DNA from: a bacterium
GTDB lineage: Bacteria; Patescibacteriota; Gracilibacteria; UBA4473
Direction: 5' to 3'
Assembly (NCBI GenBank): GCA_009995455.1
Contig: JAACPJ010000001.1
Span: 150,991 to 214,990 of the forward strand
Length of the DNA stretch: 64,000 nt
Part shown: positions 748 to 46,576 of the stretch, piece by piece
How the letters are laid out: the number at the start of each line of letters is the position of its first letter
Position numbering within the stretch: position 1 is the stretch's first letter
Program-made: the position numbers and the translations under genes
Notes under the pieces: model-generated
Databases searched by the model: none
What the model was told of the DNA's origin: nothing
The model's input: the letters and a program-made list of their open reading frames with translations, nothing else

Positions 748-2103
748 TTACGAATTTCGCAGCCCATAGTTAAAGATTTTGCATAGACTCTTGGCTTTAT
801 TATGCACTTCTAACCATTCTTTTTTAGGGTCAGAATCTTGCACAACCCCAGCCCCAGTACGAAACCGAGCCACTCCATCTTTAAGAAAAAAAGACCGGAT
901 CGCGATACAAAGTTCCATGTTGCCATCAGCGGAAAAATATCCCATCGCCCCGCCATACAAATTTCGTGGAGCGGTTTCAAATTCTTGGATGAGTTTTATG
1001 GCTCGTAATTTAGGCGCCCCGCTAAGTGTCCCGGCCGGAAAAATCGCTTTAAAAAAATCGACCGCATCAAAATCTGTTTTGATCTGCCCTTCAATATCAG
1101 AAACCAAGTGCATCACGTTAGCAAAAAATCGACCGTATTTTTCTTTCACCACTTTTATAGAATTGGTTTCACACACTTTTCCTAAATCGTTTCGGCCTAA
1201 ATCAAGCAGCATATCGTGCTCGGCGTTTTCTTTGGGGTCACTGGCCATTTCTGCCAAAATCGTTTGGTCTTGTGCTTCGGTTTTACCGCGATAACGCGTG
1301 CCCGCAATCGGGCTATAGGTAACCGTTTGCCCTCGTTTAGAGCCTAAAATTTCGGGGCTAGCGCCACACACTTGTCCGTGTTCGCCAAAGTCAAAAAACA
1401 CTAAATGCGTCGTGGGTTCAACGACCCGTAAAATCGAATAAAAATCGACGCCGTCTAAACCCTTGGTGTCTCGTTTAAACCCGTTACTAATAATCATCTG
1501 AAAGATTTCTCCGTCTAAGATTTTTTGTTTGGCCTCGGCCACTTTTTTACCAAAAGTCTCGCCAGATTGTTCTGATTCGAATGCTGAAAAATCAGCGTAG
1601 TCTTCATTTTTTAAAGCGGTTAGATCCACTTTAGGGTCTTTGAAGTTACGGGCGGCATTTATAATTTCTTGATTTTTCGCGCTAAACAAACTTTTGTCAC
1701 CGACGGTTTGAATGGCAAAAATCTTTTTATCGGCGTGATCAAAGGCAAAAAAATGTGAGAACTCGTAAAATAAAGTGTGTGGGTATTCACTTGGATTGCC
1801 GGCTAAATTCGGTTCAATTTCATCAAAAATTTCCCAGTTAAAATAACCCACCAAACCGCCTGAAAACGGAAAACTTTTTGGAAACGGTTTTGACTGGGCA
1901 ATAGCGGCTTTTAATTGCTCGAAACTATCTTCTTTCGTCACTACCTCTTGCACGGGCACAGCGGCAATCAGCGAAAACTGATTATGGTCATCTTGCATCG
2001 CAGATTCGAGCATAGCGCAAGGCGCCCCAAAATGTTCGCGCATCGCTTTAAAAACCGAAATCGGCGTTAGTTCACTTTCATAATCAAACACTTCTAAAAT
2101 CAT
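748..2103 (-). CDS. chorismate-binding enzyme, anthranilate synthase component I / aminodeoxychorismate synthase family (TrpE/PabB)
   Basis: 451 aa. C-terminal chorismate-binding signature GAPKLRAIKLIQEFETAPRNLYGGAMGYF, ELCIAIRS, GAGVVQDSDPKKEW. N-terminal MLESA motif. Confidence 0.85.
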   Translation of the reverse strand: MILEVFDYESELTPISVFKAMREHFGAPCAMLESAMQDDHNQFSLIAAVPVQEVVTKEDSFEQLKAAIAQSKPFPKSFPFSGGLVGYFNWEIFDEIEPNLAGNPSEYPHTLFYEFSHFFAFDHADKKIFAIQTVGDKSLFSAKNQEIINAARNFKDPKVDLTALKNEDYADFSAFESEQSGETFGKKVAEAKQKILDGEIFQMIISNGFKRDTKGLDGVDFYSILRVVEPTTHLVFFDFGEHGQVCGASPEILGSKRGQTVTYSPIAGTRYRGKTEAQDQTILAEMASDPKENAEHDMLLDLGRNDLGKVCETNSIKVVKEKYGRFFANVMHLVSDIEGQIKTDFDAVDFFKAIFPAGTLSGAPKLRAIKLIQEFETAPRNLYGGAMGYFSADGNMELCIAIRSFFLKDGVARFRTGAGVVQDSDPKKEWLEVHNKAKSLCKIFNYGLRNS

Positions 2104-2420
2104 GTCTTTGGAAAAACTTTAGGAAATACTTCACGTCCAACGCCAAACTGTAATTCGGCACTACCGCGAGAAATTTGGGTAATACTAACACCTAAACGCT
2201 TAGCAATTTCTCGTTGCGGATGCCCCGCCATCAGCATCTCTATAAGCGAATATCTATCGCACAGAGTTTGACATTCCTTTGGCGTAAGAAAGGCACGTAT
2301 AAAATTTTCAACGTCTTTTTCGTTGTCCATTTTGGAAATAATTGATGCCATTTTTTTTAAAATTTGAGCTTCTTTTTTTGTCATTTTGTAACGGTTAAGC
2401 AGTACAAAATTATTCATCAA
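2100..2420 (-). CDS. TrpR/YerC-family DNA-binding protein (Trp-repressor-like)
   Basis: LTPKECQTLCDRYSLIEMLMAGHPQREIAKRLGVSITQISRGSAEL parallels the E. coli TrpR core [47 protein letters not shown]. Its stop overlaps the start of the TrpE-like gene by 4 nt. The true start may be the internal MTKKEAQ. Confidence 0.7.
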   Translation of the reverse strand: MMNNFVLLNRYKMTKKEAQILKKMASIISKMDNEKDVENFIRAFLTPKECQTLCDRYSLIEMLMAGHPQREIAKRLGVSITQISRGSAELQFGVGREVFPKVFPKT

Positions 2421-10149: not shown

Positions 10150-11970
10150 TTAGCTGACTAACACCGCTTTAATACGCCTGACTCCGCGACTTGAAGACTC
10201 TTCTTTTTTAATTTTAAAAGCGCCTTTCAGTTCGTTGGTATTTTTAACGTGTGGGCCACCACAAAGTTCTCGTGTCCAAACCTTGCCGGTGTCATCTTTA
10301 AAGGTGAATACTTTGACAATGTCTGGGTATCGTTCCCAAAAACTGGCTTCAATCGTTTCATCTTGCTCAGCGTCTACTTTTGGCACTTCTTCGTAAACTT
10401 GCTCCGCATTGGCGGCAATTGCGGCGTTAACGTAAGCCTCAACCGCTTCTTTTTCTTCATCTGTCATTTTATCACCGTGCGTAAAATCAAAGCGTAAACG
10501 CTCGGCGGTAATGTTACTCCCGGCTTGATGTACGTGCGTGCCTAACACTTCACGAAGCCCGGCCAAAAGCAAGTGAGTAGCGGTATGAAGGCCCGTTTCG
10601 ACCTCAATGTTTTCTCGGCTCATTCCTCCTTTAAACTTCCCTTCGGCTCCCGCTTTAGATAAAGCTTGATGCGCTTTTTCGGCTACCTTGAAACCTTCGG
10701 TATCGACTTTTAAACCGGCCTCAGCGGCTAACTCTTCGGTCATTTCAATTGGGAATCCGTAGGTTTGGTATAAATCAAACGCAACGTCTCCGCTTAAAAT
10801 CGTTTCGGCATTAGCGGCTACTTTTTGAAACTGTTTTTCTCCTTTTTCAAGCGTGGTTCTAAATTGTGATTCTTCCCGGCTCAGTTCTTCTAAAATAAAA
10901 TCTTGGTTTTTTATAAGTTCTGGATAGTGGCTGCCTAGTTTGTCAATAACGGCTTTTGCAATAGTGTGGCAGAAATTATTTTCAATGCCAAGTTTGCGGC
11001 CATGTCGAACTGCTCGTCGGATAAGACGGCGTAAAATATAACCTTGATCTACGTTCGAAGGCGCGACGCCATCGCCTAAAATAACCGTTGAACTTCGCAG
11101 GTGGTCTGCCACAATTCGAGCTGAATTATGTTTTGCAGAATCACCGACTGGATTCTCAACAATACCGTTAAAGCCACTAACTTCAGCAATGGCGGCTAAA
11201 ATATCGGTAAAAGCATCAGTTTGATAAACCGAAGTTTTACCGTTTAGCACGGCCACCGTTCGTTCGAGTCCCATGCCTGTATCTACATTTTGGGCTGGCA
11301 GTTCTTCCAGGCTCCCATCGGGCAATTTATTGAACTGCATAAATACATCGTTCCAGATTTCAACCCAACGCGGATCTTCCCAGGTTTCTTGGTAAGGTTT
11401 ATCCAGTTCAGGCGATTCTGGGTCTCCGGTCCAGTAAAACATTTCACTGTCTGGGCCACAAGGACCGGTTTCGCCTTTCGCCCACCAGTTTTCGGCGGCA
11501 TCTAAATAGGCAATTTTATGTTCTGGCATACCGTTCTTTTTCCAAATACCAGCCGCTTCTTCGTCACGTGGGGCATTTTCATCGCCTTCAAATACACTCA
11601 CTGCTAAACGCCGTAGTGGTAGTTCTAATTCCTTAGTTAAGAATTCAAAACTCCAGGCAATTTGGTCTTCTTTAAAAAAGTCACCCAAACTCCAATTGCC
11701 TAGCATTTCAAAAAAGGTCAGATGTGTGGCATCGCCCACTTCTTCGATGTCTCCAGTTCGCACGGCCTTTTGGCTATTGGTCAGTCGCGTTCCTAGCGGA
11801 TGAGGCTCTCCCATCAAGAAAGGCACTAACGGGTGCATTCCAGAATTGATAAAAAGTGCCGTTGGGTCATTTTCTGGCACCACGCCGGCTGAAGGAATAA
11901 CCGCATGGTCTTTTGATTTAAAGAACTCAAGCCATTTAGTTCGAAGACTGTCAGTAGTGTATTGCATCAT
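10150..11970 (-). CDS. alaS: alanine--tRNA ligase, short form (catalytic + editing domains, no C-Ala domain)
   Basis: N-terminus LRTKWLEFFKSKDHAVIPSAGVVPENDPTALFINSGMHPLVPFLMGE. Editing-domain HTATHLL and CGGPHV motifs. Ends at RRIKAVLVS after 606 aa. Confidence 0.9.
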   Translation of the reverse strand: MMQYTTDSLRTKWLEFFKSKDHAVIPSAGVVPENDPTALFINSGMHPLVPFLMGEPHPLGTRLTNSQKAVRTGDIEEVGDATHLTFFEMLGNWSLGDFFKEDQIAWSFEFLTKELELPLRRLAVSVFEGDENAPRDEEAAGIWKKNGMPEHKIAYLDAAENWWAKGETGPCGPDSEMFYWTGDPESPELDKPYQETWEDPRWVEIWNDVFMQFNKLPDGSLEELPAQNVDTGMGLERTVAVLNGKTSVYQTDAFTDILAAIAEVSGFNGIVENPVGDSAKHNSARIVADHLRSSTVILGDGVAPSNVDQGYILRRLIRRAVRHGRKLGIENNFCHTIAKAVIDKLGSHYPELIKNQDFILEELSREESQFRTTLEKGEKQFQKVAANAETILSGDVAFDLYQTYGFPIEMTEELAAEAGLKVDTEGFKVAEKAHQALSKAGAEGKFKGGMSRENIEVETGLHTATHLLLAGLREVLGTHVHQAGSNITAERLRFDFTHGDKMTDEEKEAVEAYVNAAIAANAEQVYEEVPKVDAEQDETIEASFWERYPDIVKVFTFKDDTGKVWTRELCGGPHVKNTNELKGAFKIKKEESSSRGVRRIKAVLVS

Positions 11971-28082: not shown

Positions 28083-28421
28083 ATGAAAACGCTTGAAGAA
28101 CTAACGCAGCTGCTGATCAAATTTAGAAATGACCGAGATTGGTCTCAATTTCATAATTCCAAAGATCTCGCTTTAGCTCTTTCAATTGAAGCTGCAGAGC
28201 TAAATGAGTTGTTTTTGTGGAAGTCAGAAAAAGAGGCCGAAAATATAAACAAAGTGAGGCTCGGCGAAGAGTTAGCCGATGTTTTGGCTTATGCCTTACT
28301 TTTGGCTGAAAAAAATGATTTAAATATTGAAGAAATTGTGAGAAATAAAATTAATTTGAATGCGGGAAAATACCCCATTCACAAAGCCAAAGGGACTTCT
28401 GAAAAATATACTGAACTATGA
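28083..28421 (+). CDS. MazG-like nucleotide pyrophosphohydrolase (DCTPP1/YpjD-type all-alpha NTP-PPase)
   Basis: 112 aa. FRNDRDWSQFHNSKDLALALSIEAAELNELF and EELADVLAYALLLA carry the EExxE/ExxD metal motifs of this family. Confidence 0.8.
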   Translation: MKTLEELTQLLIKFRNDRDWSQFHNSKDLALALSIEAAELNELFLWKSEKEAENINKVRLGEELADVLAYALLLAEKNDLNIEEIVRNKINLNAGKYPIHKAKGTSEKYTEL

Positions 28422-39500: not shown

Positions 39501-39515
39501 TAAATCTTTTATCAT
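36501..39515 (-). CDS. UvrD/PcrA-family SF1 helicase fused to a C-terminal PD-(D/E)XK (AddB/Cas4-like) nuclease domain
   Basis: LNPAQRQAVEQLYGPVLVLAGPGTGKTH, LLVDEYQDTN, TAHKSKGLEFEVV, VALTRAK. C-terminus YLDCPRQFLYQ...GKMDKIVF...IVDYKSGK. Confidence 0.85.
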   Translation of the reverse strand: MIKDLNQIISTLNPAQRQAVEQLYGPVLVLAGPGTGKTHMLTTRVAHILNSGIGANPQNILCLTFTESAAVEMRNRLQTWIGEAAYQVKIMTFHGFCQWVMDDNPHVFYPLIGEREIGDDLQKALVFRTVIKQKKWTYFSSVWDDFVHQYDFLSAVSDLKRENLTPQTLRDLIPAEKERLEQDPENFYKRKFKEFMPGDWKPQAKAKIEDKVAKMEELAELWEAYTAEMTKRGLYDFDDLINWVVAEIKQNENLRLDLQERFQYLLVDEYQDTNASQNAILWQLTEGIEAPNIFAVGDDDQSIYRFQGASVANITDFRTQFPTHLEITLTENYRSHQNVLDAAYNSVSHNQERANQDKHLTAQKTGFTSENPGRIVQAELSGRLAEIAFLADTIKGHLKAGIPGGEIAVLVRKNREIAELARELPKFDIPVSALVAQNIFTNEAVGQLLLMLRVFADVKDDEKIFELLHCDFLSIEPEALLQLSLNRESGKSMSQTLLDQPSTSEKLNQFFQYFITARRDYSHTRAAVMAEKFLYESGLAPFLTTHNRLEDWQAIRKFIAWIREQTHTENFRKKISFNQELNEILNLVGLHQELNIPVFPDKVPQNAHAVQLMTAHKSKGLEFEVVLIPGLEDKAWGNPRSKGGMALPQLNTQEFDENEEERRLFFVALTRAKSQIYLSYAASDFSGRDKTPSIFWHEIPENLSEKTESSALEVQLQSLLPVFYQQAEKTLTAAERSILQDRVKNFRWSVSSLQTYLDCPRQFLYQRLYKFPRRPLPHMALGTSLHQALERSFYALEKNQKVSLDSMLQEYESALRGHNIKADELEKWLDHGKEILTHYYQEKLLNFAQDYPFGFELEYDFGHFNPQVEGISITGKMDKIVFNDPKKHTATIVDYKSGKPKPVKPGEALWRQLVFYDILAKQSPGVNWQVSECAIEFLTPEPSGKLGGRTLKVTAEDRATVIAELKEANRAVLNLEFPLIDVNGLSEDDRKEIEYWQNFGSSEV

Positions 39516-40005
39516 GCAGAAATTCTGGCTTTTAGTAACGGTAATTTATTTAGTCGGTTGTTCTACTCCAGAGGTTAATACAACCGAGGAAAACACACAA
39601 ACAGTGAACGTTGATTTAACGCAAAATCAAGAACCAGACTTGGTGGTTGAAGCCCCTATGACGGAGCCCTTAAAAATTAATGACCAAGAGTTTTTTGTGG
39701 AAATTGCCGATACACGTGAAGAACGGGAACTAGGTCTTATGAACCGTGAATTTATGCCAGAAAACATGGGTATGATTTTTGAATTTCCAAATACCGCCCC
39801 ACGAAATTTTTGGATGAAAAATACCTTGATTCCGCTCGATATGATCTGGCTGGATGAAAACAAAACCATTGTCGATATTCAAGCGGCCGAACCTTGCACG
39901 ACCGAAGAATGTGCGGTTTACAGCGGAAAGGCACCCGCGATGTATGTTTTAGAACTTAATAAAGGCGTATTAAAGGCGTCAGTTGGAGACCGGGTAGAGT
40001 TTTAA
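39514..40005 (+). CDS. DUF192-family lipoprotein
   Basis: Lipobox VIYLVGCS. DUF192 core ADTREERELGLMNREFMPENMGMIFEF...FWMKNTLIPLDMIWLD...YVLELNKG. Confidence 0.7.
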   Translation: MQKFWLLVTVIYLVGCSTPEVNTTEENTQTVNVDLTQNQEPDLVVEAPMTEPLKINDQEFFVEIADTREERELGLMNREFMPENMGMIFEFPNTAPRNFWMKNTLIPLDMIWLDENKTIVDIQAAEPCTTEECAVYSGKAPAMYVLELNKGVLKASVGDRVEF

Positions 40006-42950
40006 AAAGCGGTTTCAATTTTTAAGTCGGGTAAACCGAGTTCTTCCAAGGCGTCCAAATCTTCTTGGCTGCGTGCCACAATAATAACGCCTTCTTTTTG
40101 GCAGTGTTGCATGACGGTTTCAAAACTTACAAAAACAGGTTCGGTTTGAACAAATAAGCCAATATCCGCTTTCTGCCACATCGAAATTAAGGTTCGAATA
40201 AAGTTGCAGTTCTCGGCTTCACCGTGAGTGAATGTGAACTCGGACGCTGCTGTAGGAGAGGTAATTTGAACAAACTGTGACTGCTCTTCTGGGCTCAGTA
40301 AATCCCAAGCTTCTAAGGCTATTTTAGTCATGCGCTCAGAAAAGGCTCCCACACTTGAACGATGCGCTAAATCGTCAATTTTTTGACCTTGTTTTAGGGT
40401 TTGCCAAAGTCGTAATACGGCATATTTCTGCCAACGGGCATCGTTTAGAATCAAGTCATAATCGACTTGGGATTTAGCGGCATCAAAATGCTTTTCTTCT
40501 CGAAAAAATGCGTTTTGATAAACCGTTAACCCCGCATCAGCAAAATCGGCCCAACTGCCATCCCATACAAAACCGCGTCCGTTAGCAATAGATTTAATTC
40601 TACCTTTTTCGTTATTAAGTCGATTGACTAAATTTAAGTACGAACTTTTAGATTCTTTACTTGATTTAGCGCGTTTTCTTTCCGTCTTGAATGAAAAATG
40701 ACTGGCATCATTCGGGCGATCTTTTTTGCCCGCTACTAAAGGTGACTTATCGGGTGGAAGAGTGATAATCCCCATCATGCAAACCGTTCCAATCGCCCAT
40801 CTCGCGGCTTCATTTTGCCAAGATTCTGGGGTATTATCTTCAAATTTAAGTTCAAAAATTTCACTTGGACCTTCGGCCTCACGATTAATTTTTATCTGGA
40901 ATTTAATTCCAACATCTTTGATATCAAATTCAATATGATCCAGGACTACGTTTCGGTCTTTTTGGCTTTCCAGCAAACCTTTAACAAAGGTGGCTTTAAT
41001 GCCGGCCTTGGCCAGTTGGGCGGTTAAATGTTTCATTTTAGGAATAAAAGCACTCGCCACACAGGTTTTGTCCCACGAGTATAAAGGCAATTCGAGACCC
41101 TTTGGGCCTCTATGAACCCCTTGTTGATATTCTTCCCAGGGTTTAAAGCTAATGGCTTCGCGGCAAGCTTTTCCTTTCGCTTTTCTAAATTCGTTGGCCT
41201 GTCTCCACTCAGAAATTTCGCGTCGAATCTTTTCTCTTTTCTCTAGAGCCGAATCTTTTTCCTGTTTCGCAATTGCCCATGAAACCAGCAATGCCATTAA
41301 CTCATCATCTAAATCGGGCGAAAGTGCTTTAAAGGTTGGATGCACAATTTTTAAAGTCACAGCATCAACGGTGAAAGTCTCTAAGCAATTAAAAACTTTT
41401 GTGCCCGTCCGCGGTGCAAAAGTAATCAAATCTCCCTCAAGTTGAATTGAGGCAAAAATTTCCTCGAATTTATCAATATACTCAATCAGCTGTTCGGCTA
41501 AATGCGTTTGCCAATCAAGTTCATTGGCAAGATCCATCGCTTCTACACACGGCTGACATTTTGTAAGTGGGGTTCTTAAATTGTCAGGTAGAACTGGTTC
41601 AAATTCTTGAATAACAGAAGTCTGAATTTCAGTGGCGACTTGTGGCGCTGGATTAATAACTTTTCTGGTTTCGCACCAAAATTCTTCTGGTACACCGCTG
41701 GTGCTATTGGCATTTGGAAAAGCGGTCGATCTATCGCATAAAAACCCCGACACTTGGTAGTCAAAATTTTGCGGTTTTTCAATAATAGCTTTTTGCAGTT
41801 CTTCCCAAGTGGCAAAACAATAAATGGTCGTGTTTTGCGTTTTTCGGCTTCTCGCAACCCCTCTAACTACCAAGTGTAAAAAAGTACCTGCAGGCCAAGG
41901 ACTGGTTGAAATTTCTAGTTGTCTTCCTCTGCATCTTGAATTAATACTTTGTGGTGGGGCGTATTTTACTTCTGGAGCTTTAATTATTGCTTGAACTTTT
42001 TCCCCCGTGAGTTGAGCCACTCCCTTTGGGGCTTGGATTTCTTTAGCTACTGGGGTGTTTATAAAACGTCTGTAAAACGATTTTGGAATTCCATCCCGGT
42101 ACTCCCACAGGGTTTCAACGGCTTGGAGTAACAATTGGTTTTCATCATTTAAAGCCGTTTGTTTCGTTTCAAAAAATATTTTCCAGAGCGGTAAAAATCG
42201 ATCAGCGGTTAGGGTGTCATCGAAACTTAATTTAGTGCAGACACGTAAAAATACAGCCACTTCCAGAGCGGTTAAAAGCGCTGATTTTAAGGCTTCATTT
42301 TCTTTTAATAAATCTGGTTTTAATAACGCCGGTGTGCACAGAACAATCCACTCAGGGTGAGTCTTAAATTGCTCTATTCCCTCATCACTACTTAAATAAT
42401 TCGTTAATTCTGCGTGTATGTCTTTTTCTAATTTATTAATAGAAGCCGCTTTTTGTACGCCTTTAAGCGGCGGGAAAAAGATTAAACGCTCACTAGAAGC
42501 ATTATGGTTAACAAAGTTCAAGCGGGCGGCGACAGCATTTTTAAGAATTAATTCAGTCGCTTTAGCATGGTTAACTAAAAGGCTTTGGTCATTTTTTTGC
42601 ACAGACTCTTTAACTTGTGCCTGCGCATAAAATTGATTTATGGAGGCCAATAATCGCATAAAAAAATCGTCTAAAGCCCCTTCCTCTAATGCGTAATCTG
42701 GCATCGCCTTAGCCTCAGTCAAATAGTACAAAACCTGGTTAATCGTAATCGATCTTGATTTGGCATAGGCGGCCTTAATACCCTCGGCAAATTCTTGCCC
42801 ATGTTCTATAACTATTTGTGCAATTTCAGTCGCATCCACTATGGCTTGGTGGGTTCGCTCGAAAGTTTCACCGTTATCGGCAAAAACCTGTTCTGCTAGT
42901 AAATTACTTTGGTAGGCTTCAGATTCTTTTAAGGCCAAGGTTCTTCTCAT
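40002..42950 (-). CDS. large hypothetical protein (982 aa, orphan)
   Basis: Uninterrupted 2.9-kb ORF. No signal peptide, TM helix or known catalytic motif recognised. Confidence 0.55.
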   Translation of the reverse strand: MRRTLALKESEAYQSNLLAEQVFADNGETFERTHQAIVDATEIAQIVIEHGQEFAEGIKAAYAKSRSITINQVLYYLTEAKAMPDYALEEGALDDFFMRLLASINQFYAQAQVKESVQKNDQSLLVNHAKATELILKNAVAARLNFVNHNASSERLIFFPPLKGVQKAASINKLEKDIHAELTNYLSSDEGIEQFKTHPEWIVLCTPALLKPDLLKENEALKSALLTALEVAVFLRVCTKLSFDDTLTADRFLPLWKIFFETKQTALNDENQLLLQAVETLWEYRDGIPKSFYRRFINTPVAKEIQAPKGVAQLTGEKVQAIIKAPEVKYAPPQSINSRCRGRQLEISTSPWPAGTFLHLVVRGVARSRKTQNTTIYCFATWEELQKAIIEKPQNFDYQVSGFLCDRSTAFPNANSTSGVPEEFWCETRKVINPAPQVATEIQTSVIQEFEPVLPDNLRTPLTKCQPCVEAMDLANELDWQTHLAEQLIEYIDKFEEIFASIQLEGDLITFAPRTGTKVFNCLETFTVDAVTLKIVHPTFKALSPDLDDELMALLVSWAIAKQEKDSALEKREKIRREISEWRQANEFRKAKGKACREAISFKPWEEYQQGVHRGPKGLELPLYSWDKTCVASAFIPKMKHLTAQLAKAGIKATFVKGLLESQKDRNVVLDHIEFDIKDVGIKFQIKINREAEGPSEIFELKFEDNTPESWQNEAARWAIGTVCMMGIITLPPDKSPLVAGKKDRPNDASHFSFKTERKRAKSSKESKSSYLNLVNRLNNEKGRIKSIANGRGFVWDGSWADFADAGLTVYQNAFFREEKHFDAAKSQVDYDLILNDARWQKYAVLRLWQTLKQGQKIDDLAHRSSVGAFSERMTKIALEAWDLLSPEEQSQFVQITSPTAASEFTFTHGEAENCNFIRTLISMWQKADIGLFVQTEPVFVSFETVMQHCQKEGVIIVARSQEDLDALEELGLPDLKIETAF

Positions 42951-43055
42951 CTTTGCTAATTTAAATGTTTTTAAAAAAAATCAAATTCTAATTTGTAGAA
43001 TTTTTAGACAGAGGCGTTTTTTGACAAAAAGCTTTCTAGAGCTACTTTAAACACG

Positions 43056-43094
43056 ATGAAACACTTAATGGTCGTAGTCGAACTTTATTTCTAA
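43056..43094 (+). CDS. candidate valS leader peptide MKHLMVVVELYF (three consecutive Val codons)
   Basis: ATG AAA CAC TTA ATG GTC GTA GTC GAA CTT TAT TTC TAA. It starts about 7 nt after a possible TTGACA(43021)-16nt-TACTTT promoter, so the transcript may be leaderless. No SD. Confidence 0.35.
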   Translation: MKHLMVVVELYF

Positions 43095-43098
43095 ATTG

Positions 43099-43148
43099 AA
43101 GGCGAGACTTCGATGACTTTTATACTCGCCTTAAAGCGAGTTTTTTTT
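43099..43148 (+). promoter_or_regulatory. candidate transcription attenuator (antiterminator/terminator pair) upstream of valS
   Basis: AAGGCGAG (43099-43106) pairs perfectly with CTCGCCTT (43125-43132). Alternatively CTCGC (43125-43129) pairs with GCGAG (43136-43140), followed by T8 (43141-43148). The valS ATG is at 43163. Confidence 0.45.
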
Positions 43149-43162
43149 ACAATCTTTACACT

Positions 43163-46100
43163 ATGGAAAAAGCCTATAACCACCTGAATTCAGAAGCCGA
43201 TATTTATAAAGCTTGGGAAGAATCTGGCGCCATGCGCGCAGATGAAACGTCAAACAAGCCGCCCTTTACGATTCCTTTGCCGCCACCGAATGTAACGGGA
43301 GAATTGCATTTAGGGCACGCCGCTATGCTGGCGATTCAAGATATTTTGACGCGTTATAAAAAAATGCAGGGCCACGAAGTGTTGTGGTTACCAGGCACCG
43401 ATCACGCTGCTATTGCGACTGAAAATGTGGTGATCAAGCATCACGGTAAGCAGTCGCGTGAGGAGTGGCCGAGTCGGGAAGACTTTATGGTTGACGCTAA
43501 AGCTTTTGCCGATGAAAAACACGACAACATTGTGAATCAAATGAAGCGAATGGGATCGTGGCTTGATTGGAGCCGCGAAGCCTACACCTTCGACGAACCG
43601 CGAAATTTTGCCGTAAACCGAATTTTTAAAGATTTATATCAAGACGGATTAATTGAGCGTGGTTATCGCCTCATTAACTGGAGCGTGGGCGCGCAATCGG
43701 TACTATCTGATGACGAATTAGAATGGGACGAAGTCAAAGAACCTTTTTTCTATATCAAATGTGGAAAGTTTATTATGGGAACGGTTCGGCCAGAAACCAA
43801 ATGTGCTAACTCGCCATTAATCGTGCATCCAGATGAAGACTACGTGGAATTTGAAAATTCAGCAGGAGAAAATTTTATCGTGATCAAGCGTTTGTATGAC
43901 GACAAAGAAAAATTTTTCAAAACCCTTAATTTCTTAGACGCTGACGCGGATTATAAAGTTTTAAAAACCACGAAAGGTTCTGATTTAGTGGGCGAAAAAT
44001 TTAGCGCCGAAACCTATGCGGGAATGCGAGATTTTTACGTGATCGCTGACACGGTCATTGACCCAGAAAAAGGCTCTGGAGCTATGACCATTTCAGCGTC
44101 CCATTCAGCCGATGATTACAATTTAGCTAAACGTTGGGAGAAGTCCCCCTTGTCAAAGGGGGATTTAGGGGGATTTATGCCGCCGAAAGATTGGTTTATT
44201 CAAAAAATTGATTTTGCAGGGAACATGACCGAAGTGGCGGGCCCAGTGGCGGGCTTTTCAGTGAAAAAAGCACGGAACGTTTCGGGTAAATTACTAGAAG
44301 AAAAAGGGTTGCTGGTCGGGAAAGACATAAATTACGAACACCGAGTACCGCTTTGTTACCGGTCTAGTTGCGTGGTTGAACCGATGATTTCGCCGCAGTG
44401 GTTTATTATGGTGGAAAAAGAATACACCCACGCACTTGATGGAAAAACAACGTTGAAAAGGCAGATGCAAGCCGCCGTCCGTGGCTTTGAAAATGAAGAT
44501 CCAGCGGTTCAAATCATTCCGGAACGCTTCAACAAAGAATATTTTAGATGGATTGATAACCTGCAAGATTGGTGTATTTCACGCCAGATTTGGTGGGGAC
44601 ACCGAATCCCGGTTTGGTATGACGAACAGCAAAATATTCATTTAGCCGAAGAACAAGAAATCATCTTTGCGCGTCACGGTGAAAGTGTCGGCAATCGTGA
44701 TAGTAAGGTGCAAGGCGTGGATGATCCGCTCACCGATAAAGGCCGAGCGCACGCGCAAGAAATGATTGAGGTTTTAAAATCTGAAAATGTGGGCGTGATT
44801 GTAACGGGCACTTCGGCCAGAAATACCGAAACCGCCGATATTATTGCCAACGGTTTAGGCGTTAAAGTGGTGCATATTGAAGAACTAAGTTCTTATGATA
44901 CGAAAGACGTAGCCGGTATGAGCATTGATGATATTGGTCGAGTGGCCGCCATAAAATACTGTAAAGAAAACGGGAAAGGGGAAGATTTTGACGTCTTCGT
45001 TGAACGTTTAAGAATTGGTTTAGAGAAATTAAAGGCCGTGCGATCAAAGGGAAAAATTGTGTTTGTCACCAATCGTTCTATTTACTCGGTACTGCAAGTG
45101 CTACGAGATGGTGGAGATACGTCTGATATTTTTGAAAAACGATCAAAAAATTCACATTTACCACACGGAGTTATTGATCGTTGGCCTATTTTCCAAGCGC
45201 CCGATTTGCCAAATTTAAGACAAGATGAAGATACGTTAGACACTTGGTTTAGTTCGGCCTTGTGGCCGTTCTCAACCCTTGGTTGGCCGAATAACGAGGC
45301 GCCCGATTTACAAAAATTTTACAACAACGCCGTTAATGGCCAAGGGACAGATGTTCTAGAAACTGGTTGGGATATTTTGTTTTTCTGGGTGGCGCGAATG
45401 ATTATGTTTGGCCGTTATGCCACCAATAAATTTCCGTTTCATACGGTTTATTTGCACGGTATGGTAACCGATGAACACGGTAAAAAAATGTCGAAATCAA
45501 AAGGGAATGGGATCAATCCCATTGATATGATTGAAGAATACGGAGCCGATCCGGTTCGTTTGGCTTTGGTGATTGGTTCTACGCCAGGGCAAAAAATTCC
45601 GATTGGCCCCAATAAAATTAAAGGCTACCGAAACTTTGTAAATAAAATGTGGAACGCCACCCGATTTGTGGGCCTGCAATCAGCTGACTCTGAAACAGGA
45701 GCGTATGAAAGATCGGTTCCGACTCAGCCGTCAGCAGACAATTTAAGTCTTACCGATCAATGGATTTTATCTAGACTTAGCACCGTTTGCGCCGAAGTTA
45801 AATCGTCGCTTGAAGCGTATGATATTTCAACCGCTGGAGACAAGATTTATCACTTTGTTTGGGGTGAGTTTTGTGATTGGTATTTAGAAGCCGCTAAAGT
45901 GGAACCAAACATTGATGTACTGAGGTATGTGTTAGCCGAGATTTTAAAACTAACCCACCCGCTGTGTCCGTTTATCACGCAGCAATGTTGGCAAGAACTG
46001 TTTTCAGACAGCCTGATTATTGAGGAATCATTTCCAAGTTTAAGTCTTGAAAATCCAGAAGCGGTTAAGCAATTCACAACCGTTCAAAATATTGTGGGGG

Positions 46101-46495
46101 CGATTAGAACTTTGCGGGCTGAAAAAAATCTGAATCCTAAAGATAAAATTGCGGCCGGTATCAAAACCGATGAAGCGCATTTAAAATCGGCTTCAGATCT
46201 CGTAAAAGCCTTAGCTAATCTTTCTGATTTAGAAGTTGCCGCTCAAGCAATAACACCGGAACATAGTGCCACCACGATTGTCGATAATTTAGAAATTTTT
46301 GTTGATATACCCTTCGATGCGGATGCAGAAGCGGCTCGAATCGAAAAATTGAAAACGGAATTGTCTCAAAAAATTGCGGGACTTAAAGGACGCTTAAGCA
46401 ATCCAAGTTACACTGAAAAAGCGCCACCCAAGCTCGTTGCCGAGACTCAGGCACAATTGGAACAAGCTGAGTCAGAGCTGCAAAAACTGAGTTAA
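43163..46495 (+). CDS. valS: valine--tRNA ligase carrying an inserted histidine-phosphatase (PGAM-like) domain
   Basis: HIGH (ELHLGHA), CP1 editing ([23 protein letters not shown]), [39 protein letters not shown], and a C-terminal coiled coil. The insert between [10 protein letters not shown] and [12 protein letters not shown] begins [12 protein letters not shown]. Confidence 0.9.
   Translation: [1110 protein letters not shown]
44145..44176. repeat. G5/C5 palindromic repeat element, in-frame copy inside the valS editing domain
   Basis: CCCCCTTGTCAAAGGGGG-ATTTA-GGGGGATT, translated as [11 protein letters not shown] between AKRW and [10 protein letters not shown]. Confidence 0.6.
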
Positions 46496-46509
46496 ACTGT
46501 ATCTAATCT

Positions 46510-46544
46510 GCGTTTATGGGGGCTTGGCAACCGTAAACGCTTTT
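46510..46544 (+). terminator. probable intrinsic terminator of valS
   Basis: GCGTTTA...TAAACGC (7-bp stem, 17-nt loop) followed by TTTT. Confidence 0.45.
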
Positions 46545-46576
46545 ACCGGCGGGCAGAACGTTTTAAAATAAAAATA

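What the first reader, a model, noticed from the sequence alone, without database searches (positions are those of the whole stretch)
43021..43162. Val-Val-Val leader peptide and mutually exclusive hairpins upstream of valS: possible ribosome-mediated attenuation of an aaRS gene
The 212-nt region upstream of valS contains a 12-codon ORF, ATG AAA CAC TTA ATG GTC GTA GTC GAA CTT TAT TTC TAA (43056-43094, MKHLMVVVELYF).
Five nt after its stop, AAGGCGAG (43099-43106) can pair perfectly (8 bp) with CTCGCCTT (43125-43132).
The same 3' segment can instead form CTCGC/GCGAG (43125-29 / 43136-40), immediately followed by T8. That is an intrinsic terminator 15 nt before the valS ATG.
A ribosome pausing at the stop codon would cover 43099-43106 and favour the terminator. 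A ribosome stalled on the three Val codons would leave that segment free to form the antiterminator.
This is the logic of the pheM-pheST leader in E. coli, applied here to valS. A TTGACA at 43021 with a weak -10 (TACTTT) would put the transcription start at about the leader ATG, giving a leaderless transcript.
Caveats: there is no SD, the terminator stem is short, and three Val codons in 12 could be chance.
Basis: partly seen in the sequence, partly recalled or inferred. Interest (0 to 1): 0.62.

Follow-up and report, generated by a model that had tools for sequence, protein, structure and literature searches.

The report
Valine-codon leader attenuator before valS
A 12-codon mini-gene with a run of valine codons, followed by two mutually exclusive RNA hairpins and a terminator, sits before the valyl-tRNA synthetase gene of an uncultured CPR (Gracilibacteria-like) bacterium and is conserved in ten relatives; it looks like a classic ribosome-sensing switch, applied to a gene and lineage for which I found none described.

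Summary

- **Conserved layout.** Ten related valS loci (ValRS N-terminus 58-90% identical) carry the same layout as the window:
  - a TTGAC[AG]-16/17-TAnnnT promoter;
  - an ATG 7-12 nt after the -10 box;
  - a 10-16-codon ORF whose only conserved feature is valine (46 of 122 non-initiator codons);
  - a stop codon 3-11 nt before segment 2;
  - an antiterminator helix (2:3), a terminator helix (3:4) that shares segment 3, and a T-run.
- **Covariation.** The antiterminator is 85% paired against 32-47% in slid controls. The terminator is 97% paired against 24-45%. Both have compensatory changes.
- **Folding.** With a ribosome masked on the last Val codon, the nascent RNA folds into the antiterminator in 11 of 11 sequences.
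- **Specificity.** Rfam gives no real match. A covariance model finds the element only upstream of valS.
- **Shine-Dalgarno.** The window's genes generally lack Shine-Dalgarno sequences, so that caveat falls away.
- **Missing evidence.** No RNA data exist, so transcription start, termination and valine response are inferred.
- **Known parallels.** Leader-peptide attenuators of aaRS genes are known or predicted (pheST, Streptomyces trpS/leuS, Bacillus hisS paralogues). I found none for valS or for CPR bacteria.

Verdict: a real feature and a new member of a known kind.

The parts
43021..43026 (+). -35 box TTGACA of the leader promoter
   Evidence: TTGAC[AG] sits at the same relative place in 11 of 11 loci. 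Function as a promoter is inferred.
43043..43048 (+). -10 box TACTTT, 16-nt spacer; the ATG follows 7 nt later, so the transcript should be leaderless or nearly so
   Evidence: TAnnnT with a 16-17-nt spacer, and an ATG 7-12 nt downstream, in 11 of 11 loci. The transcription start was not measured.
43056..43094 (+). Leader ORF, 12 codons plus TAA: MKHLMVVVELYF
   Evidence: Orthologous ORFs of 10-16 codons in 10 relatives.
43071..43079 (+). Regulatory Val codons GTC GTA GTC, the two rarest Val codons in the window's genes
   Evidence: Val is 46 of 122 non-initiator leader codons across 11 loci. Window Val codon usage is GTT .36, GTG .32, GTA .18, GTC .14. The leaders use GTC 22 of 46 and GTA 10 of 46 times.
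43095..43114 (+). Optional small hairpin A (AUUGAAG / CUUCGAU) that overlaps segment 2. It could be a pause or anti-antiterminator hairpin; its status is unresolved.
   Evidence: Appears in constrained folds of the window and its closest relatives. Across the 11 sequences it is 65% paired against up to 52% in slid controls: inconclusive.
43099..43106 (+). Segment 2, AAGGCGAG, the 5' arm of the antiterminator
43125..43132 (+). Segment 3, CTCGCCTT, shared by the antiterminator (3' arm) and the terminator (5' arm, 43124-43129)
43136..43141 (+). Segment 4, GCGAG(T), the 3' arm of the terminator hairpin
43141..43148 (+). T8 tract of the intrinsic terminator
   Evidence: A T-run of 5-8, or an interrupted T-rich tail in L020, follows segment 4 in 11 of 11 loci.
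43163..46495 (+). valS, the regulated gene: 1110-aa valyl-tRNA synthetase with an inserted His_Phos_1 domain
   Evidence: Pfam hits. The N-terminus MEKAY.. is conserved in relatives. Only 14 nt separate the T-run from the ATG, which leaves no room for a separate promoter.

Best explanation
This is a ribosome-mediated (leader-peptide) transcription attenuator that ties valS transcription to the supply of charged tRNA-Val.

1. Transcription starts at or within a few nt of the leader ATG, giving a leaderless or near-leaderless RNA. This step is inferred.
2. A ribosome translates the 12-codon ORF while RNA polymerase moves on.
3. When Val-tRNA is plentiful, the ribosome reaches the TAA. The stop lies 4 nt before segment 2, so the ribosome's footprint occludes segment 2. 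Segment 3 then pairs with segment 4, and the hairpin plus T8 terminates transcription 14 nt before valS.
4. When Val-tRNA is scarce, the ribosome stalls on GTC GTA GTC, 19 nt upstream of segment 2. Segment 2 stays free and pairs with segment 3 as soon as segment 3 emerges. This 8-bp helix (-10.1 kcal/mol) is more stable than the terminator (-7.6). The terminator cannot form in time, and polymerase reads into valS.

Shown here: the sequence elements, their conservation, covariation in both helices, and geometry and energetics that fit the model.

Inferred: the transcription start, translation of the ORF, termination, and the response to valine.
For: - **Conserved architecture.** Eleven loci spanning 58-90% ValRS identity share the layout.
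- **Leader peptides.** They share only M, a run of Val, and their length: MKHLMVVVELYF, MKLSVVVVVNPT, MNQSKVVVVTPN, MNQSLVVVVPEL, MSRTEVVNVIK, MRQPFVVVVNV, MNRNVVVVPKQ, MKNTVLVSAKVVVVVR, MKNFSVVVNR, MKKFNSVIVTKVIS, MKKNVSVRVVVI. Val is 38% of leader codons against 5.9% in the window's genes. The third codon position varies, so selection acts on the codon family and not on the nucleotide string.
- **Antiterminator.** 85% of cells pair against 32-47% in slid controls, and 4 pairs change on both sides.
- **Terminator.** 97% against 24-45%, and 3 pairs change on both sides. In L109, segment 2 G>A, segment 3 C>T and segment 4 G>A change together.
- **Geometry.** Stop to segment 2 is 3-11 nt. Last Val codon to segment 2 is 8-20 nt.
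- **Energies.** The antiterminator (-8.9 to -13.0) is at least as stable as the terminator (-6.3 to -9.7) in 10 of 11 sequences.
- **Constrained folds.** The nascent RNA up to segment 3, with a ribosome masked on the last Val, folds into the antiterminator in 11 of 11. With the ribosome masked at the stop codon, the terminator is the fold in every sequence folded before the script stopped (8 of 11).
- **Promoter.** The promoter and the ATG spacing are conserved in 11 of 11.
- **Shine-Dalgarno.** SD-less initiation is the norm in this genome.
- **Specificity.** The element is found only upstream of valS in the sequence held (CM search).
- **Distant valS loci.** About 75 distant valS loci lack a Val-run ORF with a terminator.
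Against: - No transcript data exist. No RNA run holds the stretch.
- The window's region alone does not fold better than shuffles (z = -1.37).
- The terminator stem is short: 5-6 bp in the window, -7.6 kcal/mol.
- In the complete RNA the terminator, together with a small hairpin A, is thermodynamically preferred even with segment 2 free. Read-through therefore depends on kinetics that I cannot test.
- Hairpin A (43095-43114) would form before segment 3 is made and is not covered by a ribosome stalled on the Val codons. It could blunt antitermination. Its conservation is inconclusive.
- No conserved 1:2 helix was found. Untranslated RNA might therefore read through, unlike in the trp attenuator.
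- Two leaders have weak Val runs: L102 (VVNV) and L106 (VIVTKVI).
- Six of 17 clade members lack the element.
Confidence: 0.8

Rival explanations
1. The switch is a ribosome-coupled attenuator that reports general translation capacity or transcription-translation coupling, not valine specifically. On this reading the Val codons are incidental or secondary.
For: The three-segment design has no conserved 1:2 helix, so any delay of the ribosome would favour read-through. Two leaders have diluted Val runs (L102, L106).
Against: Val is the only conserved residue and makes up 38% of leader codons in 11 lineages. The Val codons are kept through synonymous changes. The regulated gene is the cognate synthetase. 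No other residue is enriched.
Confidence: 0.08
2. The short ORF is not translated. The alternative hairpins form a protein-, tRNA- or ligand-controlled attenuator, for example ValRS autoregulation through a tRNA-like operator or an unrecognised riboswitch.
For: Terminator and antiterminator pairs also occur in riboswitches, T-boxes and protein-mediated attenuators. Translation was not shown.
Against: - Rfam gives no T-box or riboswitch hit even at E up to 10.
- The leader from ATG to T-run is only about 93 nt. The 13-18-nt loop between segments 2 and 3 is not conserved and carries no conserved UAC or GAC anticodon mimic.
- The ATG, the reading frame, the in-frame stop and the stop-to-segment-2 distance are conserved, while the peptide outside the Val run is not.
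- The ATG keeps a fixed distance from the -10 box.
Confidence: 0.07
3. A ribosome stalled in the leader acts mainly on valS translation, by opening structure around the valS start. This is how the mycobacterial leaderless poly-Cys sORFs work. On this reading the hairpin plus T-run is not an efficient terminator.
For: The terminator stem is short. The valS ATG lies only 14 nt after the T-run in the window. Leaderless sensory sORFs that act on translation are documented (10.1101/834739).
Against: The valS start region is not part of any conserved helix. In L006 and L106 valS starts about 100 and about 70 nt beyond the T-run. A T-run directly after the stem is conserved in 11 of 11 loci, which a translational mechanism would not require.
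Confidence: 0.04
4. Chance: an unrelated short ORF lies next to an ordinary hairpin.
For: The fold of the window sequence alone is not significant. Three Val in 12 codons can arise by chance.
Against: The element is conserved with covariation in 11 loci. The control scans are negative.
Confidence: 0.01

Closest known systems
E. coli pheST attenuator (pheM leader peptide)
   Same: A leader-peptide transcription attenuator in front of an aminoacyl-tRNA synthetase operon. It has a short ORF rich in the cognate codons, an alternative antiterminator and terminator, and a hairpin with a U-run just before the structural gene. Scarce charged tRNA leads to more synthetase. (Textbook knowledge; cited as precedent in PMC1262725.)
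   Different: - No sequence relationship, a different amino acid and gene (Val and valS), and a different phylum (CPR).
- Here the leader appears leaderless and SD-less.
- The design has three conserved segments (2, 3, 4) with no conserved 1:2 helix.
- The ORF is shorter, at 10-16 codons.
Predicted classical attenuators upstream of trpS and leuS in Streptomyces, and His-codon leader peptides upstream of hisS paralogues in Bacillus
   Same: Comparative-genomics predictions of cognate-codon leader peptides with terminators and antiterminators before aaRS genes outside the Proteobacteria (PMC1262725; PMC2965389).
   Different: Other amino acids and other phyla. Neither paper mentions valS ('vals' occurs 0 times in both).
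Classical amino-acid operon attenuators (trpL, hisL, leuL, thrL, ilvL/ivbL, pheL)
   Same: Ribosome position on a run of regulatory codons selects between mutually exclusive hairpins. The regulatory codons tend to be rare ones, as reported for the leu leader. The ilv leaders also contain Val codons.
   Different: - Those control biosynthetic operons; this one controls a synthetase.
- They have SD-led leaders and four segments including a 1:2 pause hairpin.
- No Rfam leader family matches here.
Mycobacterial leaderless poly-Cys short ORFs (Cys 'ribulon')
   Same: A leaderless sensory sORF at the 5' end of the transcript, where a ribosome stalled on a homopolymeric codon run remodels downstream RNA structure (10.1101/834739).
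   Different: [quoted passage not shown] This element has a conserved hairpin with a T-run, which points to transcription termination.
T-box riboswitch (the usual aaRS regulator in Firmicutes, including valS)
   Same: The same physiological logic: uncharged tRNA leads to antitermination and more synthetase. Both use a terminator and antiterminator pair.
   Different: A T-box senses tRNA directly through a roughly 200-nt structured leader with a specifier loop and the T-box motif. None of that is present here, there is no Rfam hit, and the leader is about 93 nt.

Membership tests
Ribosome-mediated (leader-peptide) transcription attenuator | Short ORF in the 5' leader enriched in codons of the amino acid cognate to the regulated gene | tested here: met
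   The 12-codon ORF has VVV. Ten orthologous ORFs carry 3-7 Val. Val is 46 of 122 codons against 5.9% genome-wide.
Ribosome-mediated (leader-peptide) transcription attenuator | Intrinsic terminator (G+C-rich hairpin plus U-run) between the leader ORF and the structural gene | tested here: met
   Met at the sequence level only. ACTCGC-loop-GCGAGT plus T8. The helix is 97% paired across 11 loci with compensatory changes and is the RNAalifold consensus. Actual termination was not tested.
Ribosome-mediated (leader-peptide) transcription attenuator | Antiterminator helix mutually exclusive with the terminator through a shared segment | tested here: met
   Segments 2:3 form 8 bp at -10.1 kcal/mol. 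Segment 3 is shared. 85% paired against 32-47% in slid controls, with 4 pairs changed on both sides.
Ribosome-mediated (leader-peptide) transcription attenuator | Regulatory codons and the stop codon placed so that ribosome position decides which helix forms | tested here: met
   Stop to segment 2 is 3-11 nt. Last Val to segment 2 is 8-20 nt. Constrained folds give the antiterminator in 11 of 11 with a stalled ribosome, and the terminator with a ribosome at the stop codon in all 8 sequences folded before the script stopped. This rests on geometry and an assumed footprint of about 9 nt beyond the A-site codon.
Ribosome-mediated (leader-peptide) transcription attenuator | Upstream 1:2 (pause / anti-antiterminator) helix, as in trp, his and pheST | tested here: inconclusive
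   RNAalifold finds no conserved helix that involves the ORF. Small hairpin A after the stop is 65% paired against up to 52% in controls. This feature is common in the family but not strictly required.
Ribosome-mediated (leader-peptide) transcription attenuator | The leader is transcribed and translated, and read-through rises on starvation for the cognate amino acid | not testable with these tools
   No RNA runs were found. Only conserved promoter-like boxes and ATG spacing are available.
T-box riboswitch | Stem I with a specifier loop, and the conserved T-box sequence in the antiterminator bulge | tested here: not met
   cmscan of 42800-43400 at E up to 10 gives no T-box hit. The two weak sRNA matches are far below their gathering scores. 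The leader is too short.
Rfam leader-peptide families (Trp, His, Leu, Thr, Phe leaders and others) | Match to a curated covariance model | tested here: not met
   No such hit. The element is analogous to these families, not homologous.

The most novel reading that the evidence does not exclude
The valS leader may be one member of a lineage-wide 'ribulon' in Gracilibacteria-like CPR bacteria. In that reading, leaderless, SD-less sensory mini-ORFs with cognate codon runs control several aaRS genes and amino-acid supply genes by intrinsic termination. They would do the job that T-boxes do in Firmicutes.

Earlier unchecked notes of this scan report a Thr leader before thrS and a Met leader before metA in the same genome.

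If true, it would imply tight transcription-translation coupling and amino-acid-specific sensing in organisms that cannot make most amino acids and depend on hosts or neighbours.
Probability: 0.45. Interest if true: 0.7.

Novelty: new member of a known kind. Interest (0 to 1): 0.5.

Why it matters
- **A new amino acid-gene pairing.** Among aaRS genes, leader-peptide attenuation is established for pheST. It has been predicted for trpS, leuS and hisS paralogues in a few phyla. I found no description of a Val-codon leader controlling valS, or of any leader-peptide attenuator in CPR/Patescibacteria.
- **A regulatory handle in CPR bacteria.** These bacteria are uncultured, have tiny genomes and few recognisable regulators. 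A conserved, sequence-readable switch shows how they sense amino-acid supply. It predicts that transcription and translation are coupled and that leaderless initiation is efficient in them.
- **A compact design for testing.** The minimal three-segment design of about 93 nt can be tested in vitro or reused as a valine or tRNA-charging sensor.
- **An annotation fix.** In at least one public genome (L106) the ValRS start was called inside the attenuator, which adds about 34 spurious residues.

Tried and rejected
I could not scan the window's own genome or its relatives for other aaRS leaders, and I could not check the thrS and metA notes.
- **Rfam.** Nothing relevant, so T-box, riboswitch and known leader families are rejected.
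- **RNA-seq.** No runs found.
- **DNA runs.** Aquifer and spring metagenomes carry the identical sequence, so there is no micro-diversity to exploit.
- **Metagenome scan.** The patterns picked were too generic. It returned mostly 36-42% identical ValRS and only one useful locus, L020. Those distant loci served as negative controls.
- **RNAalifold on the whole leader.** It returns only the terminator. There is no conserved helix between the Val codons and downstream RNA.
- **Hairpin A after the stop codon.** Inconclusive.
- **Anticodon-arm mimicry for ValRS autoregulation.** Rejected, because the loop between segments 2 and 3 is not conserved.
- **Other genes in the window.**
  - alaS (10150-11970, minus strand) has only a small terminator-like hairpin upstream and no Ala leader.
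  - trpE (748-2103, minus strand) is preceded by a 106-aa ORF that looks TrpR/YerC-like by eye (not run against any family library), with no Trp leader.
  - tyrS in L106 has no leader.
- **L004 (Nomurabacteria).** An MSSVVVTDK ORF lies about 170 nt upstream of valS. It has no terminator or alternative helices and no CM hit, so I treat it as coincidence.

Full report
**1. What is in the window**

The 212-nt region 42951-43162 lies between two genes. One is a divergently transcribed 982-aa gene with no Pfam match (40002-42950, minus strand). The other is a 1110-aa valyl-tRNA synthetase gene (43163-46495, plus strand).

- TTGACA at 43021-43026, then a 16-nt spacer.
- TACTTT at 43043-43048, then 7 nt.
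- The ORF ATG AAA CAC TTA ATG GTC GTA GTC GAA CTT TAT TTC TAA at 43056-43094.
- AAGGCGAG at 43099-43106 (segment 2).
- CTCGCCTT at 43125-43132 (segment 3).
- GCGAG at 43136-43140 (segment 4).
- T8 at 43141-43148.
- The valS ATG at 43163.

The pattern scan calls ACTCGC/GCGAGT plus the T-run terminator-like.

Taken alone the region is unremarkable. The MFE is -20.4 kcal/mol with z = -1.37. Rfam gives nothing meaningful, even at E up to 10.

The window uses the standard genetic code. TGA acts as a stop, with several ATGA stop/start overlaps, and there are no in-frame TGA codons in valS or alaS.

**2. Relatives**

- The search for related loci on genome contigs.
- The search for related loci on metagenome contigs.
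- A protein search, followed by contig look-ups.

The closest relatives are CPR bacteria labelled Candidatus Gracilibacteria or Altimarinota.

Reading the DNA upstream of valS showed the same layout in ten loci: L001, L100, L101, L102, L103, L006, L003, L020, L106 and L109. Their ValRS N-termini are 58-90% identical to the window's.

Each of these loci has, in order:
- A TTGAC[AG] box, a 16-17-nt spacer and a TAnnnT box.
- An ATG 7-12 nt after the -10 box.
- An ORF of 10-16 codons.
- A stop codon (TAA ten times, TAG once) 3-11 nt before segment 2.
- A 13-18-nt loop, then segment 3.
- A 2-7-nt gap, then segment 4.
- A T-run.

The leader peptides are:

| Locus | Leader peptide |
|---|---|
| window | MKHLMVVVELYF |
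| L001 | MKLSVVVVVNPT |
| L100 | MNQSKVVVVTPN |
| L101 | MNQSLVVVVPEL |
| L102 | MSRTEVVNVIK |
| L103 | MRQPFVVVVNV |
| L006 | MNRNVVVVPKQ |
| L003 | MKNTVLVSAKVVVVVR |
| L020 | MKNFSVVVNR |
| L106 | MKKFNSVIVTKVIS |
| L109 | MKKNVSVRVVVI |

Nothing but the initiator and the valines is conserved. Val makes up 46 of 122 non-initiator codons (38%), against 5.9% in the window's genes.

The Val codons interchange among GTC, GTA, GTG and GTT. What is kept is therefore the codon family in frame, not a nucleotide motif.

GTC (22 of 46) and GTA (10 of 46) dominate the leaders, yet they are the two rarest Val codons in the window's genes (14% and 18%). The leu leader is reported to behave the same way. 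The lineages are related, so this is suggestive and not a formal statistic.

**3. The two helices**

I counted pairs on a MAFFT alignment running from the stop codon to the T-run (A2).

| Helix | Cells paired | Slid controls | Pairs changed on both sides |
|---|---|---|---|
| Antiterminator (2:3) | 85% | 32-47% | 4 |
| Terminator (3:4) | 97% | 24-45% | 3 |

Examples of coordinated change:
- In L006, GAGGCGAA pairs with TTCGCCTC, and TCGCC with GGCGA.
- In L003 the arms are CGAGGC and GCCTCG.
- In L109, segment 2 is ACGAG, segment 3 is CTCGT and segment 4 is ACGAG. Three positions change together.

Segments 2 and 4 are near-copies of each other in every locus. That is expected if both compete for segment 3.

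RNAalifold on the whole leader returns the terminator as the only consensus helix. No conserved 1:2-type helix involving the ORF was found.

**4. Geometry and energetics**

- The antiterminator ranges from -8.9 to -13.0 kcal/mol. The terminator ranges from -6.3 to -9.7.
- The antiterminator is at least as stable as the terminator in 10 of 11 sequences.
- I truncated the nascent RNA at the end of segment 3 and masked a ribosome up to 9 nt beyond the last Val codon. The MFE is then the antiterminator in 11 of 11.
- With the ribosome masked to 9 nt beyond the stop codon, segment 2 is blocked and the terminator forms in every sequence folded before the script stopped (8 of 11).
- In the full-length RNA, the terminator plus a small 5' hairpin is the equilibrium fold even when segment 2 is free. 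The antiterminator must therefore act as a kinetic trap while polymerase crosses the last roughly 16 nt. This is the standard assumption for attenuators, but it is untested here.

One loose end remains. In the window and its nearest relatives, a 7-bp hairpin A forms directly after the stop codon (AUUGAAG/CUUCGAU, 43095-43114). It overlaps segment 2, and a ribosome stalled on the Val codons would not cover it. It may be a pause or anti-antiterminator hairpin. Its conservation is inconclusive.

**5. Controls**

- The window's genes lack Shine-Dalgarno motifs. Four of 51 have one, against a 10% background. A missing SD before the leader ORF therefore does not count against translation. The ATG sits 7-12 nt after the -10 box in all 11 loci, which fits leaderless or near-leaderless initiation.
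- A covariance model of the element finds only the 11 valS leaders in the window plus 95 loci (484 kb, both strands).
- A generic scan for a short ORF with a run of three or more identical residues followed by a terminator gave these results:
  - In the window it finds this site and four others. Three of those lie inside longer ORFs, and one is a TTG-initiated Leu-run ORF upstream of the gene at 28083.
  - In 110 loci it finds 21 hits. Nine are the valS leaders, and none of the rest has a Val run.
- About 75 distant valS loci with enough upstream sequence (36-42% identity) lack the element.
- In the window, alaS and trpE have no leader ORF.

**6. Distribution**

On a ValRS tree the element occurs in 11 of 17 members of one well-supported clade (97/98). 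The pattern is patchy, and the starred branches force at least two changes. It is absent from the Peregrinibacteria, Nomurabacteria and Saccharibacteria outgroups. The simplest reading is one origin in this Gracilibacteria-like clade followed by several losses.

**7. Mechanism**

The best explanation (confidence about 0.8) is classical ribosome-mediated attenuation.
- When Val-tRNA is abundant, the ribosome reaches the stop codon and occludes segment 2. Segments 3 and 4 pair, and the T-run terminates transcription before valS.
- When Val-tRNA is scarce, the ribosome stalls on the Val run. Segments 2 and 3 pair, and polymerase reads through, so more ValRS is made.

The sequence anatomy, conservation, covariation and geometry are shown here. 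Transcription start, translation, termination and valine dependence are inferred. No RNA run is available, and the DNA runs carry no variants.

The rivals are:
- A general translation sensor.
- An untranslated protein- or ligand-controlled attenuator.
- A translational mechanism like the mycobacterial leaderless poly-Cys sORFs (10.1101/834739).
- Chance.

Each conflicts with at least one conserved feature.

**8. Relation to known systems**

The element works like the E. coli pheM-pheST attenuator. It also resembles the predicted attenuators before trpS and leuS in Streptomyces (PMC1262725) and before hisS paralogues in Bacillus (PMC2965389). It is not homologous to any of them and matches no Rfam family.

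Full-text searches found no valS leader-peptide attenuator and no leader-peptide attenuation in CPR bacteria.

It differs from the textbook design in two ways:
- It is leaderless and SD-less.
- It has only three conserved segments.

I file it as a new member of a known kind.

Earlier notes from this scan report a Thr leader before thrS and a Met leader before metA in the same genome. I could not check them. If they hold, this lineage uses a family of such switches, which would be the more interesting story.

Noticed in passing
window 44650-45214 (ValRS residues about 500-642): A His_Phos_1 (PF00300) histidine-phosphatase-fold domain is inserted in the ValRS catalytic core (E 2.9e-19). Dozens of ValRS homologues at 46-88% identity carry the same insertion, while others in the clade lack it. 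An earlier agent of this scan has already followed this up.
   Followed up: partly
L106 1501-1605 (GCA_023143095.1, JAGLIF010000003.1): The public gene call for ValRS (P0021, 1325 aa) starts at an ATG inside the attenuator loop (1501). The conserved N-terminus MKKAYDH begins at 1603. The annotated protein therefore carries about 34 spurious N-terminal residues that cover the terminator.
   Followed up: partly
L102 1331-1374: A tandem duplication of the promoter region (TTGACACCAATATTTGTTTTTA, twice) lies directly upstream of the valS leader ATG, which may give two -35 boxes.
   Followed up: no
window 42983-43003: A perfect 8-bp inverted repeat, AAATTCTA-ATTTG-TAGAATTT, lies between the divergent promoters, 18 nt upstream of the leader -35 box. 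It could be an operator. It is not seen in L001 at the same place.
   Followed up: partly
window, all gene starts: Genes lack Shine-Dalgarno motifs: 4 of 51 starts have an SD-like 4-mer at -20 to -4, against a 10% background. Upstream regions are A/T-rich.
   Followed up: yes
window 748-2420 (minus strand): A trpE-like gene (Chorismate_bind plus Anth_synt_I_N) is directly preceded by a 106-aa ORF (2100-2420) that looks TrpR/YerC-like by eye; it was not run against any family library. There is no Trp-codon leader upstream. Tryptophan genes are unusual for a CPR genome.
   Followed up: partly
window 39514-40005; L102, L106, L108, L109, L110: A DUF192 gene lies directly upstream of valS, on the same strand, in L102, L106, L108 and L109; in L110 it lies one gene further upstream, behind an NMN-transporter gene. 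UvrD-PDDEXK neighbours DUF192 in L106, L108 and L110. In the window, L100, L101 and L103 an orphan gene of about 980-1150 aa on the opposite strand sits in between. This suggests an insertion between DUF192 and the valS leader.
   Followed up: no
window 46500-46545: A hairpin GCGTTTA...TAAACGC followed by TTTTA lies just after the valS stop codon. It is probably the valS terminator.
   Followed up: no
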